From NCBI GenBank assembly GCA_000004985.1, contig GG738856.1: 64,000 nucleotides of DNA. One strand, 5' to 3'. Positions within the stretch are counted from its first letter, which is position 1. Each line of letters starts with the position of its first letter. The notes below the pieces were generated by a model. That model searched no databases and was not told where the DNA came from. It saw only the letters and a program-made list of their open reading frames with translations. Both the position numbers and the translations under genes were made by a program. The DNA is from Naegleria gruberi (lineage: Eukaryota). Below are positions 17,750 through 20,901 of the stretch, piece by piece.

Positions 17750-20700
17750 ATTAACAAAACATCTTTTCACATGCTTTAGTTTCTTCTAGTTTCGAATAAT
17801 ACATTTGTATTCAGTTTCTTCAACATGTGTGAATTGTTTCTGATACAAGATTTTATTCAAGAGAGAAATATCTCAAAGTTAAAGAATACGCACTTATTGA
17901 ACTGTTTGTGTGAAGAATTCAATTAAACTCACAAGAAATAACGTTTGTGTATACAAGATTGGATGCATACCTCCATTTTTATTCGATAGTTTACCAATTT
18001 CTGTTTGATAGACCTCTTGAGATTGTGCGAATTGTTATAGATTTATTGAGAGAGAATCTCGACGAAACTAATCTATCAACTGTTGCGGCAATTTTCTTAC
18101 CAATATTAACTGATTTCTTTCGTATTGTCAATATTCGAAGTGGGAAACCATGTCATGATGGAATGCGTATCTTCAAGGTTTCAATCTCTCTCACACTTTA
18201 GTAGAATACTTTCGTCTTTTTTCAACAACATTCCAATAAAATTCATTTCAACCTTATTGAACGATGGATTACGTTGGAGAAAAATATTTACGCACATCCA
18301 TTTTGGTTAGTGAATACGAACAGGTCACAGATTCACAAAAAATCAAGTTCACTTATTCTGCTGACTTGTTTCATCAACTTGTTGTAAGAAACTACAGTAA
18401 ACTGTAAAACTGTAGATGAGAATTTTGAAAAAAGTTGATTATCATTGTAATCTTTAATTCTCATACTCGTACATTCGGTAGGGGTACGCCTCCAACTTAT
18501 TCAACTTTCGAATAAGAAAGTTCTGATCCAAAGTGGAAGATTGCTTACCTCAGAGTTATCTCAATTTGTGAGGCAATGACCAAAAACTTATAATCTTCTC
18601 TAGGATAACAATAATGCGCTAGGAAATAATCCAAGATTTGTAGAGTGTCTTTAATTTTTCCTTTTTTTCCTTTCTTTGAAGGATTCGAATAATGTTACTG
18701 GAAAATGTGCATGTTTGGATAATATTGGAGGAATTTAAATGTGCAGTAAGCACATGGATGAATTACAAGATTGAAGATAATCCAATATATGTATTCATGC
18801 TTACTGTACTTTCGATATGGTTATTGGAAACAACAGTGAAACTCTTTTCGAAAAGATTGATCTTCAAGATTCAAAGATTGACCTTGATATCTTTGTTTAT
18901 TATGGCAACTAACCAAGTGCATTATCTTTCTCATTTTTGCGTAATATTGCAATTCCTGGACTTTCGAATAGTGTAAAATAGAATGTAAGATTGTTACAAG
19001 GTTTTGGAATAATTAAATGCGCACTTGTGGTAGATTCTCATTTCCAGTTCAGCCAAATCTTTGAACAAATCTGTTCGAATCCTTTCTCGTCTTTACTGTA
19101 GATTTCACTGTAGTCAATTATGCAATGATTGTAAAGTTTATACAAGTTGACATTGTAATTGGGGTTCGATGAAGATCCAGGATTAAATCTCGCTCTACTA
19201 TTAGAAAGTTAGCTCGCACTCCAAATTTGATGAATGCACTTAAATAGTTTAGTTTCGGCAAGTGTATGTTAATGAGTGATGGCGTCAGTACAGCTATCAG
19301 GAAATTGAAATACTTGGTGTATAGTTGAAATCCATTAAGAATCATTTACAGTTTTTTTCAACTGAAGTGGGTGAAAGGATTCGCTCGTTGTACATTATTC
19401 GAAACCTGTAAATTAAACATAAAGGAAAATCTTAATTTGCAATAAAAATGGTAGCATTCGGCTCGGAATGGTGCTAGACTCCCGGGTATCAGTGAATTGT
19501 AGTTTCAGCTATTCTTTTAGCCTGTTTCTTCTCCTTTCGAATAAAATCTAGATACCTTTAATACAACACGATAACTCCAACAGTAACTACATAATGAATA
19601 TTTCATGCTATCACAATTCAGAAGATAATCCATCAAAGATATTTTTCTGCTCTTTCTACAACCTGTCTTGTTGCCAAATGTAAACAAGACGAAACTTGAC
19701 TAAATTGCATTTTTGTGAAGTTTAAACTTGGGTGCACATACTAGTTTGTAGCTTTACACCAATATTTTTGAGATACGAACGGAAGAAGTCGTACTAATTG
19801 GTAAAGATTCCCATTCACTATTGGAAAGGATTCAAAATCCCTCTCGAATTCGATGTTATTGAATAATTCCATTTAATTTTCATGAAACAAGTAAGGAAAT
19901 GAGAATATATCCTTGGTCGATTATGGATGTGCTGTCATTTTACTGTTAACATTATTATTGAGATTCGTCTTCGAGTACAGAAAGTCCAAACTTACTGTAG
20001 TTTTCGAAAATTGACGAAACAAACTAAATTAATTTCAGAATAGTCTCAATTCTCAGTACTCATAAAGTTTGAAGAATTTTAGTTAACTGTAGATGATGAA
20101 ATGGTAAAAAACTGTAAATTACAATTTGTAGATTCTCTTCCACATACGAAAGCGTAGGTCGAAAGTTTCATGCAACAAGGAATTTTTAGTTTATGTCACA
20201 AAACTCTTTAACATATCTTTCAATTTTGGAGATTGATAATTTTTGTGTATGGTTAAACAAAATTAGAACATTAGATGGCCTATACGAAACCTGTGTAAGG
20301 TTACCGAAAGTTTGAGAAGATATGTGAACGAAAGCGAGTAAACTGAAGTGATGGACTAAGTAAGCTGCTTACTGAGCAAAAGATGAAGGAACAGACGAAA
20401 ATTCGAATAGAATCATTCCATTTAATTTTGTTTTTATCTTTTGAAAAAGTTCATTAATTGAGGATGTTCAATGCAAATAGGTTGACTTAATTGAGGTTGA
20501 GAAAACTGTAGATTTGAAATCTACAGAAAATCTTTCTAATTGTTTCGCCAGTTCCACGTTTGGTGTTCCGTAATGTTCAGTTTCATTTATTCGAAAGTTA
20601 CAGAATATATCAGTGATCCAAGATAATGGATATTGATGCATTCCCAAAATATTGAATCCATCAAACTGTCATCTTTGTTAAATGTGTTGGACATACAATT

Positions 20701-20901
20701 ATGTTTACCTACCATTATAGAACATGTGATATGGTTGTAATCATCTAGTAGCATAAGAAAGGAAACTAATCTTGCGCTGTGAACTAAACGAACAATGAAC
20801 ATAATCCTTTCAATCTACAGTTATTTCTTTACCAATGTTTAATTACAGTTTTTTATTTGAGGGTTTTTACAAACTGGTTGGTTGGTTGACCATCTTCTCA
20901 C

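What the first reader, a model, noticed from the sequence alone, without database searches (positions are those of the whole stretch)
17750..20900. The 10-mer AACTGTAGAT recurs at least 8 times, including two perfect palindromes, and only inside ORF-free stretches
By eye the motif occurs at about 18408(+), 19095(+), 20084(+), 20507(+), 20517(-), 20811(-), 58040(-) and 58058(+). A specific 10-mer is expected well under once in 128 kb of two-strand sequence, even allowing for AT-richness. Two pairs form perfect inverted repeats. One is ctgtagattt-g-aaatctacag at 20506-20526. The other is aatctacagttt-caaact-aaactgtagatt at 58039-58068, with 12-bp arms. Related longer copies exist, for example agttaCTGTAaATGATGAAg at about 15291 versus agttaaCTGTAgATGATGAAa at about 20081. 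These read as a dispersed element rather than a bare motif. All copies sit in three stretches (14.7-17.0, 17.8-20.9 and 57.7-59.1 kb) that have no credible ORF, in a genome that elsewhere packs genes 4-50 nt apart. Candidate explanations are a palindromic transcription-factor site cluster, the terminal inverted repeats of a small non-autonomous transposon (MITE-like), or sequence elements of a noncoding RNA locus.
Basis: seen in the sequence. Interest (0 to 1): 0.65.

Follow-up and report, generated by a model that had tools for sequence, protein, structure and literature searches.

The report
Clustered DNA motif beside Naegleria paralogs
A 12-letter DNA word is packed, in both orientations, into the unusually long non-coding DNA next to two sister genes of the amoeba Naegleria gruberi; it most likely marks docking sites for a gene-regulatory protein, which is a real but fairly ordinary kind of feature.

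Summary
The window is nuclear DNA of the eukaryote Naegleria gruberi NEG-M, not a prokaryote. The motif is real. AACTGTAGAT occurs 6 times exactly (0.25 expected). The broader form ACTGTARAT occurs 11 times (1.7 expected). All 11 lie in three non-coding stretches that make up 11% of the window. The working consensus is wAAACTGTARATk. Sites occur on both strands, often paired 12-30 nt apart, and include two perfect hairpin-capable palindromes.

The copies share nothing beyond about 12-15 nt. There are no target-site duplications, no transposase or pseudogene relics, no Rfam match and no coding signal, so MITE and known-ncRNA readings fail.

The new result is that both motif-bearing places adjoin paralogs of one small gene family, NAEGRDRAFT_57441 and NAEGRDRAFT_47475. 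Named members of this family come only from Naegleria and Willaertia. In four N. fowleri and N. lovaniensis loci, a relaxed form of the motif is about 6-fold denser in DNA flanking family genes than in other intergenic DNA (P=0.02). The core, CTACAG, equals the Giardia Myb2 binding sequence.

The best reading is a homotypic cluster of transcription-factor sites, possibly Myb-type. Confidence is about 0.5. No binding, expression or genome-wide data were available.

The parts
14708..17002 (.). Non-coding stretch between tRNA-Trp and the start codon of NAEGRDRAFT_57441. It carries only the A-variant sites (ACTGTAAAT) and weaker CTGTAG sites.
   Evidence: (negative codon score). Strain comparison gives 26 changes in 1492 nt, against 0 in the CDS.
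15305..15313 (+). Motif site ACTGTAAAT. It lies within agttACTGTAAATGATGAAg, which resembles the site at 20081-20101.
15550..15577 (-). Two minus-strand sites, AACTGTAAAT at 15550-15559 and ACTGTAA at 15571-15577. They sit inside a 19-nt tandem duplication (15546-15586).
   Evidence: Both sites are kept in the second strain (L001), although a 20-nt indel separates them there.
17003..17749 (+). Gene NAEGRDRAFT_57441 (248 aa), a member of the Naegleria/Willaertia family with the conserved blocks IDxELxDVxSSLGLxWS and YRVRFGHNLFEEIxFKKSNPNxKFIIFK.
   Evidence: The CDS is 100% identical in a second strain while its flanks differ.
17750..20901 (.). A 3.15-kb non-coding spacer between the 3' ends of 57441 (+) and the DUF4116 gene 20902-24171 (-). 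This is the main motif cluster.
18392..18417 (.). Triple site: CTACAGT (minus-strand ACTGTAG, 18392-18398), ACTGTAA (18401-18407, +) and AACTGTAGAT (18408-18417, +). The outer two form a 7-bp inverted pair.
19094..19113 (+). Tandem pair TACTGTAGAT and ACTGTAGTC, 12 nt apart.
19344..19353 (-). Site AACTGTAAAT.
20085..20134 (+). Three sites in 50 nt: AACTGTAGAT (20085), AACTGTAAAT (20110) and the partial TTGTAGATT (about 20126-20134).
20504..20526 (.). AACTGTAGAT (+) overlapping the perfect palindrome CTGTAGATTT-g-AAATCTACAG (20506-20526).
20813..20822 (-). Site AACTGTAGAT, about 80 nt downstream of the DUF4116 gene's stop codon.
57662..59312 (.). Divergent non-coding spacer between the RCC1-repeat gene (its 5' ORF ends at 57661, minus strand) and NAEGRDRAFT_47475.
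58039..58068 (.). Perfect palindrome AATCTACAGTTT-caaact-AAACTGTAGATT, made of two motif sites at 58040(-) and 58058(+). It lies about 1245 nt upstream of the 47475 start codon and about 380 nt upstream of the RCC1-gene ORF.
59313..60293 (+). Gene NAEGRDRAFT_47475 (326 aa), a paralog of 57441.
   Evidence: tblastn gives E = 7e-8 and 0.008, collinear. See also alignment A2 and the identification.

Best explanation
The repeats are copies of a cis-regulatory DNA word of about 12 bp, wAAACTGTARATk. They form homotypic clusters of binding sites for a sequence-specific DNA-binding protein in the long regulatory DNA around members of one lineage-specific gene family, NAEGRDRAFT_57441 and NAEGRDRAFT_47475.

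The proposed mechanism is as follows. A factor that recognises the asymmetric core CTGTAG/CTACAG binds as a monomer or a loosely spaced pair. Many sites, in either orientation and often 12-30 nt apart, raise occupancy. Together they drive or gate transcription of the neighbouring family genes. A Myb-type protein is the leading candidate, because CTACAG is the Giardia Myb2 binding sequence and AACTG is the Myb core.

Shown here: the non-random abundance of the motif, its restriction to non-coding DNA, its orientation independence, its pairing, and its position next to paralogs.

Inferred, not shown: protein binding, the identity of the factor, and which gene is regulated.
For: - Over-representation: 6 exact copies against 0.25 expected, and 11 ACTGTARAT against 1.7 expected.
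- ACTGTAG and AACTGTAG are among the k-mers most enriched in non-ORF relative to ORF DNA in the window.
- All 11 ACTGTARATK sites fall in the 7.1 kb that flanks the only two family genes in the window. This gives P = 9e-5 against all non-ORF DNA, or 5e-4 if sub-clusters are counted as single units.
- Sites occur on both strands, and pairs within 30 nt are in excess (3 observed, 0.54 expected, P = 0.01).
- There is no extended homology around sites or between sub-regions. The two paralogous proteins are only about 25% identical. On that basis I infer that the short word, rather than duplicated DNA, is what has been retained.
- Further N. gruberi-type contigs add support. The third paralog, P0008, has AACTGTAAATTATTG, a 15-mer identical to the reverse complement of window 15545-15559, plus an AATCTACC..17 nt..GGTAGATT inverted pair 2.6 kb downstream. 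The 67935 ortholog has two ACTGTAG sites 13 nt apart, about 200 nt after its stop codon.
- Cross-species data point the same way. In four 21-kb loci of N. fowleri and N. lovaniensis, the relaxed motif (CTGTARAT or ACTGTAR) has 0.88 sites/kb in intergenic DNA flanking family genes. Other intergenic DNA has 0.15 sites/kb and genes have 0.12 sites/kb. This gives P = 0.02 and P = 0.001, and every locus has at least one flank site.
- The core CTACAG is stated to be the Giardia Myb2 binding sequence (PMC3656124). Giardia Myb2 targets carry two to seven such sites (PMC9547401).
Against: - No binding, expression or genome-wide data exist. Only 64 kb of N. gruberi and a few short contigs could be examined.
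- The full 10-12-mer cluster is not conserved at the N. lovaniensis or N. fowleri homologs. The cross-species signal rests on a relaxed pattern chosen post hoc and on 6 sites in total.
- Other family members show no sites. The 66798 ortholog has none within about 1.5 kb upstream or 3 kb downstream, and the 47482 ortholog has none within its short contig.
- The main cluster lies downstream of both flanking genes, in a convergent spacer. That is an unusual place for a promoter.
- The 58-kb palindrome is nearer to the RCC1-repeat gene than to the family gene.
- Some copies arose by local tandem duplication (19-nt repeat). That could happen without selection.
Confidence: 0.5

Rival explanations
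1. The motif is a non-functional by-product of mutation in unconstrained DNA. A short word was multiplied by local slippage or micro-duplication and occasional gene conversion in long, neutrally evolving intergenic stretches. Its position next to paralogs is then a coincidence, arising because these are simply the longest non-coding stretches in the window.
For: - Several copies sit in obvious local duplications: the 19-nt tandem repeat at 15546-15586, AACTGTAA|AACTGTAG at 18401-18417, and a 12-nt repeat at 19095-19113.
- The flanks evolve quickly between strains, at 1.7-2.7% changes including many indels.
- The three stretches are three of the four longest ORF-free gaps in the window.
Against: - At least nine separately placed sub-clusters occur across two loci 37 kb apart, plus a third contig.
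- The comparably long ORF-free gap at 27245-29571 has no full site.
- Perfect 10- and 12-nt inverted arms are not produced by slippage.
- Related species show enrichment next to the same gene family.
Confidence: 0.2
2. The ORF-free DNA is transcribed, either as long UTRs of 57441 or the DUF4116 gene or as an unannotated long non-coding RNA. The motif then acts in RNA, for example as a repeated binding site for a Pumilio/PUF-type protein (UGUA-R-AU), in the way NORAD carries many Pumilio sites.
For: - A 3.15-kb spacer between two 3' ends is hard to explain as a promoter.
- The word contains UGUA followed by RAU.
- Relaxed sites lean towards the + strand (about 14 to 7 by my count).
- The 19900-20899 segment folds slightly better than shuffles (z = -2.2).
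Against: - Strong sites lie on both strands and form perfect palindromes.
- The eighth position is G or T, not the A of the PUF consensus (the consensus is from my own knowledge).
- No Rfam family matches.
- The first 300 nt after the 57441 stop codon evolve at least as fast as other non-coding DNA.
- In the other species the flank sites are antisense to the family gene.
Confidence: 0.12
3. The sites are relics of a DNA transposon. They would be either MITE terminal inverted repeats or the multiple subterminal transposase-binding repeats seen in CACTA/En-Spm and hAT elements.
For: - Both orientations occur, along with inverted pairs.
- The word reads ...ACTG|TA|..., which resembles Tc1/mariner ends (CAGT...ACTG) next to a TA target. 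This comparison is from my own knowledge.
Against: - Copies share no internal sequence.
- Palindrome loops are 1 and 6 nt, and no target-site duplication is visible.
- The arms extend symmetrically past the putative TA.
- Six-frame Pfam scanning finds no transposase relic and tblastn finds no protein relic.
- N. gruberi transposable-element content is reported as 0.28%.
- The metagenome scan found only unrelated hairpins.
Confidence: 0.06
4. The clusters are chromosomal architecture elements, either replication-origin recognition sites or chromatin boundary/insulator sites, rather than gene-specific regulators.
For: - The A-variant read in reverse, ATTTACAGTTT, matches the budding-yeast ACS WTTTAYRTTTW at 10 of 11 positions (my own knowledge).
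- The location is gene-free DNA next to Pol III genes: 5S rRNA at 13338-13456 and tRNA-Trp at 14637-14707.
Against: - ACS-type origins are specific to budding yeasts.
- The commoner G-variant fits the ACS worse.
- Base composition of the stretches is ordinary (GC 0.32-0.34).
- The association with one gene family in several species is not expected for origins.
Confidence: 0.05

Closest known systems
Giardia lamblia Myb2 sites (CTACAG) in encystation-gene promoters
   Same: The hexamer core is identical (CTACAG, whose complement is CTGTAG). There are several copies per regulatory region. The factor's targets form a co-regulated gene set (PMC3656124; PMC9547401).
   Different: Giardia sites lie within about 100-200 bp of the start codon in very short promoters. 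Here the sites are 0.4-3 kb from genes, many of them downstream. The conserved word is longer (about 12 bp, with flanking AA and AT-K). No Naegleria Myb protein has been linked to it, and Giardia and Naegleria are only distantly related.
[quoted passage not shown]
   Same: Many copies of one short asymmetric word occur in non-coding DNA, in both orientations and with variable spacing. The word is retained while the surrounding sequence turns over.
   Different: This is seen in a unicellular heterolobosean with a compact genome. A large part lies in a convergent 3'-3' spacer. Function is untested.
Subterminal transposase-binding repeats of CACTA/En-Spm and hAT transposons, and MITE terminal inverted repeats
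   Same: A word of about 12 bp is repeated in direct and inverted orientation over hundreds of bp, with some tail-to-tail pairs.
   Different: There are no element termini, no target-site duplications, no transposase and no homologous internal sequence.
Pumilio-response-element arrays in the lncRNA NORAD
   Same: A repeated UGUA-containing 8-mer lies in a long non-coding stretch.
   Different: Sites are on both strands, the last base differs from UGUANAUA, and there is no evidence of a transcript.

Membership tests
MITE / TIR DNA transposon | Two terminal inverted repeats enclosing an internal sequence of tens to hundreds of bp that is homologous between copies | tested here: not met
   Palindrome loops are 1 and 6 nt. 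Copies share no similarity beyond 12-15 nt.
MITE / TIR DNA transposon | Target-site duplication flanking the element | tested here: not met
   The flanks of both palindromes were read directly. There is no direct repeat, and the arms extend symmetrically past the putative TA.
MITE / TIR DNA transposon | A related autonomous element or transposase relic | tested here: not met
   Six-frame Pfam scan of 17750-20901 finds nothing. tblastn of window proteins finds no relic. Only this window was searched.
Homotypic transcription-factor binding-site cluster | Short word significantly over-represented and confined to non-coding DNA | tested here: met
Homotypic transcription-factor binding-site cluster | Orientation-independent occurrence with variable spacing and local pairing | tested here: met
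   Spacing of the 15550/15571 pair differs by 20 nt between strains.
Homotypic transcription-factor binding-site cluster | Association with a set of related or co-regulated genes | tested here: inconclusive
   Met for both family genes in the window. Suggestive for two more N. gruberi-type contigs. Absent near two others. The relaxed motif is enriched near homologs in N. fowleri and N. lovaniensis (P = 0.02).
Homotypic transcription-factor binding-site cluster | Sites evolve more slowly than surrounding DNA | tested here: inconclusive
   Only two weak sites are covered by the second strain. Both are retained. The full clusters are not conserved in other species.
Homotypic transcription-factor binding-site cluster | Occupancy by a protein and an effect on transcription | not testable with these tools
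   Needs ChIP/DAP-seq, ATAC-seq or reporter assays.
Myb-type binding site | Core matches a documented Myb recognition sequence | tested here: met
   CTACAG is the Giardia Myb2 binding sequence. AACTG matches the c-Myb core YAACKG except at the first base (my own knowledge).
Myb-type binding site | Bound by a Naegleria Myb-domain protein | not testable with these tools
   No binding data are available.
Known structured non-coding RNA | Match to a curated covariance model | tested here: not met
   Rfam 15 at gathering score and at E <= 1 gives only tRNA-Trp in 14500-21000, and nothing credible in 57300-59300.
Known structured non-coding RNA | Folding energy clearly below shuffled controls | tested here: inconclusive
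   z = -1.3 and -2.2, with only 20 shuffles each.
Pumilio/PUF response element (UGUANAUA) | UGUA core, AU at positions 6-7 and A at position 8, on the transcribed strand only | tested here: not met
   Position 8 is G or T at all strong sites. Sites lie on both strands and in palindromes.

The most novel reading that the evidence does not exclude
The 3.15-kb spacer between two convergent genes could be a distal enhancer or silencer, or an unannotated non-coding transcription unit. Its repeated 12-bp word would recruit a Naegleria-specific factor, conceivably the nuclear products of the neighbouring gene family itself. Those proteins carry an NLS-like basic patch and an invariant C-terminal block. 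This would be an autoregulatory, metazoan-style 'regulatory landscape' in a compact protist genome.
Probability: 0.12. Interest if true: 0.55.

Novelty: new member of a known kind. Interest (0 to 1): 0.38.

Why it matters
My literature searches found no described cis-regulatory element for Naegleria. Naegleria is a model for de novo basal-body assembly and amoeba-to-flagellate differentiation, and it is the genus of the brain-eating N. fowleri. This finding offers three concrete, testable handles on Naegleria gene regulation:
- a 12-bp candidate element,
- a defined target gene family (five annotated paralogs plus one seen only on a metagenome contig in N. gruberi, with homologs in N. fowleri, N. 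lovaniensis and Willaertia),
- a candidate factor class (Myb).

It is not a new kind of genetic element.

Tried and rejected
- **Prokaryotic reading.** The window is Naegleria gruberi NEG-M nuclear DNA. This follows from exact protein matches and eukaryotic domains (PIP5K, LEM/MSC, RCC1).
- **MITE or dispersed element.** Repeat search, blastn between the stretches, site-anchored alignment and unit-against-unit Smith-Waterman with shuffles all show only the short word.
- **Known RNA families.** Negative.
- **C/D snoRNA idea.** Two sites are followed by AUGAUGA. By eye there is no D box or terminal-stem partner, and the other sites lack the C box.
- **Decayed tandem triplication.** I tested units starting at 17781, 18497 and 19526. 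No residual homology was found.
- **JGI metagenome scan.** Scanning for AATCTACAGTT-N(0-30)-AACTGTAGATT gave 23 hits. All are unrelated longer hairpins or a repeat family of another organism at 42-50% GC.
- **Synteny with N. lovaniensis.** No synteny exists at locus L004, and the exact motif is not conserved there.
- **Second-strain copy of the main cluster.** None of the small ORFs there is on record. The second-strain contig for 47475 stops 520 nt upstream of the gene, short of the palindrome.
- **TTCGAATA as a poly(A) or terminator signal.** Only 4 of 40 genes have it in sense orientation within 250 nt after the stop codon.
- **PDB sequence search with the family profile.** Nothing significant.
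Full report
**What the window is**

Exact protein look-ups identify the window as part of a 602-kb nuclear scaffold of Naegleria gruberi. 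ORF 17003-17749 is NAEGRDRAFT_57441, 11053-12933 is 57440 and 41893-43626 is 57445. The large ORFs carry eukaryotic domains: PIP5K, HeH/LEM-MSC, RCC1, F-box and LRR_6. GC content is about 33%. The window also holds a 5S rRNA gene and three tRNA genes. With ORFs of 150 aa or more masked, 16 gaps of 300 nt or more remain. The three stretches in the finding are three of the four longest.

**Checking the observation**

AACTGTAGAT occurs exactly six times: 18408+, 20085+, 20504+, 20813-, 58040- and 58058+. Dinucleotide shuffles give 0.25 expected.

Allowing any single mismatch dilutes the signal (10 found, 6.5 expected). The coherent degenerate form ACTGTARAT gives 11 hits against 1.7 expected.

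Aligning the sites gives a word of about 12 bp, wAAACTGTARATk, with no conservation further out.

Both palindromes are exact and would form stable hairpins or cruciforms. A third, weaker inverted pair lies at 18392-18417.

All 11 ACTGTARATK sites lie in 14708-17002, 17750-20901 or 57662-59312. These stretches are 11% of the window and 43% of its non-ORF DNA, giving P = 9e-5 against non-ORF DNA. Strict sites are paired within 30 nt more often than chance allows (3 pairs against 0.54 expected, P = 0.01).

In an unbiased k-mer comparison, ACTGTAG, AACTGTAG and ACTGTAGAT are among the words most enriched in non-ORF relative to ORF DNA.

**The stretches are truly non-coding and unique**

- The best-frame codon-usage score is negative in every 240-nt window of all three stretches. 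Genes score +0.06 to +0.17.
- No Pfam domain appears in any frame of 17750-20901.
- There are no relics of any window protein, and no nucleotide repeats shared with the rest of the window.
- The longest internal ORF has no homolog among 5.8 billion proteins.
- Rfam finds only the tRNA.
- Folding energies are at most weakly below shuffles.

A contig from a second N. gruberi-type strain (L001, from ENA ERZ929261) gives a useful contrast. The 747-nt CDS of 57441 is identical between strains. The upstream 1492 nt carry 16 substitutions and 10 indels, and the downstream 298 nt carry 6 substitutions and 2 indels. So 57441 is a real, constrained gene embedded in fast-evolving non-coding DNA.

**Not a mobile element**

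Repeat finding, blastn between the stretches, site-anchored alignment and Smith-Waterman scores of candidate 'units' against shuffles show nothing shared beyond the word itself and a few other 11-15-mers. The palindromes have loops of 1 and 6 nt, lack target-site duplications, and their arms extend symmetrically beyond the TA that a Tc1/mariner reading would need. A recent preprint puts N. gruberi transposable-element content at 0.28%. A scan of JGI metagenomes for the 22-nt palindrome pattern returned only unrelated hairpins.

**The new observation: the motif sits next to paralogs**

Translating the ORF that follows the 58-kb palindrome showed the same two conserved blocks as 57441. These are an internal IDxxLxDxxSxxGLxWS block and a C-terminal Y(R/K)(V/I)RFxHNxFEEIxFKxxNPxxKF block. 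tblastn confirms two collinear matches, with E = 7e-8 and 0.008. The gene is NAEGRDRAFT_47475.

A full HMM search of 1.84 billion representative proteins finds only 17 relatives at E <= 0.001. All named ones come from N. gruberi (57441, 47475, 47482, 66798, 67935), N. fowleri, N. lovaniensis and Willaertia magna.

Both places in the window that carry the motif are therefore adjacent to the window's only two members of a small, lineage-restricted family.

Further contigs give mixed support:
- The P0008 paralog has a 15-mer identical to the reverse complement of window 15545-15559 (AACTGTAAATTATTG), plus an AATCTACC-17 nt-GGTAGATT inverted pair. These lie 2.6 kb away, beyond two other genes.
- The 67935 ortholog has two ACTGTAG sites 13 nt apart, about 200 nt after its stop codon.
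- The 66798 and 47482 orthologs show nothing in the sequence available.

**Other species**

The exact 10-12-mer cluster is absent at the N. lovaniensis and N. fowleri homologs. The first N. lovaniensis locus is not syntenic with either N. gruberi locus.

A relaxed pattern (CTGTARAT or ACTGTAR) does show enrichment in four 21-kb loci. Its density is 0.88 sites/kb in the intergenic DNA flanking the family gene, 0.15 in other intergenic DNA and 0.12 in genes. Every locus has at least one flank site (P = 0.02 and 0.001). The pattern was relaxed after seeing the data and only 6 flank sites are involved, so I treat this as suggestive only.

**Mechanism**

The anatomy is that of a homotypic cluster of transcription-factor sites. 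The word is short and asymmetric, works in either orientation, has flexible spacing (the 15550/15571 pair is 20 nt further apart in the second strain), pairs locally, and is retained while the surrounding sequence is unrelated.

The core CTACAG is the published binding sequence of Giardia Myb2, whose targets carry several copies. AACTG is the classical Myb core (my own knowledge). A Myb-type factor is therefore the leading candidate, but this is a resemblance and not a test.

Which gene is controlled is uncertain. The sites lie 1.45-1.7 kb upstream and 0.65-3.1 kb downstream of 57441. They lie 1.25 kb upstream of 47475 but only about 0.4 kb from the divergent RCC1-repeat gene. The last site is 80 nt beyond the DUF4116 gene's stop codon.

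The convergent 3.15-kb spacer is the least comfortable fact for a simple promoter model. It keeps alive a downstream-enhancer reading or an unannotated-transcript reading.

**Rivals**

- Neutral micro-duplication explains some copies, such as the 19-nt tandem repeat. It does not explain nine or more separate placements, the perfect inverted arms, or the gene-family association.
- An RNA-level, PUF-like role is disfavoured by the two-strand distribution and by the wrong eighth base.
- Transposon relics are largely excluded.
- An origin or boundary role has only a superficial ACS resemblance in its favour.

**Verdict**

It is sharpened here by the link to a Naegleria/Willaertia-specific gene family and to a Myb-type core. 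This is a new instance of a familiar kind of feature. Its interest is moderate, mainly because my literature searches found no described cis-regulatory element for Naegleria. Confidence is limited by the lack of genome-wide, expression and binding data.

Noticed in passing
whole window; e.g. 17791, 18507, 18684, 18963, 19536, 20402 (+) and 18132, 19396, 20588 (-): The octamer TTCGAATA/TATTCGAA occurs 36 times in 64 kb against about 6 expected. It is the second most over-represented 8-mer, and the others in the top ranks appear to come from coding repeats. Of 47 TTCGAA sites, 36 carry the extra TA. There are 17 TTCGAA between 14.5 and 20.6 kb. Inside ORFs the sense strand reads TATTCGAA 12 times and TTCGAATA 2 times, in all three frames, so this is not a peptide motif. 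It is not enriched in N. lovaniensis (2 in 21 kb). It is not a general 3'-end signal, since only 4 of 40 genes have it after the stop codon. Unexplained.
   Followed up: partly
17003-17749 and 59313-60293; proteins P0001, P0007-P0023: A gene family whose named members come only from Naegleria and Willaertia. It has an invariant C-terminal block Y-[RK]-[VI]-R-F-x-H-N-x-F-E-E-I-x-F-K preceded by a basic NLS-like patch. From my own knowledge, the RVRF...F pattern resembles the RVxF/phi-phi docking motif of protein phosphatase 1 regulators such as RepoMan and Ki-67. There is no Pfam or PDB match.
   Followed up: partly
50434-51088, 740-789, 53738-53787, 57221: Runs of N, which are assembly gaps. 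The 655-nt gap explains the apparent 21% GC dip at 49-52 kb and the ORFs that appear open in four frames there. It interrupts a 72-nt (24-aa) LRR repeat array at 49386-50433. The 50-nt gap at 53738-53787 lies where the kinase ORF (52531-53796) and the RCC1 ORF (53703-57323) overlap.
   Followed up: yes
13338-13456 (+) and 14637-14707 (+): A dispersed 5S rRNA gene and a tRNA-Trp(CCA) gene lie immediately left of the first ORF-free stretch. tRNA-Ile(AAT) is at 46507-46579(-) and tRNA-Thr(AGT) at 60976-61049(+).
   Followed up: no
whole window: CpG is depleted (observed/expected 0.48) and TpG/CpA is in excess (1.3), more so than in the N. lovaniensis locus (0.72). From my own knowledge, this pattern is consistent with cytosine methylation.
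   Followed up: no
2187-4670 (-) and 9029-10702 (+): Unusual domain fusions in single ORFs: PIP5K with a C-terminal TPR array, and shikimate kinase with threonine synthase.
   Followed up: no
L001, L002, L028-L031 (ENA ERZ929261, labelled a metagenome): This 'metagenome' assembly contains contigs of an N. gruberi-type strain that is about 98% identical to NEG-M in non-coding DNA. It also contains a family paralog (P0008) with no NCBI N. gruberi entry in the collection.
   Followed up: partly
L006, L010, L012, L014, L019, L020, L022, L023, L027 (JAAUXT01 contigs): An unrelated metagenome assembly (44-50% GC) holds a repeat family with a 39-nt AATCTACAGTT...AACTGTAGATT hairpin embedded in conserved flanks. 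It resembles a dispersed element of another organism that happens to share the 11-nt arms.
   Followed up: no
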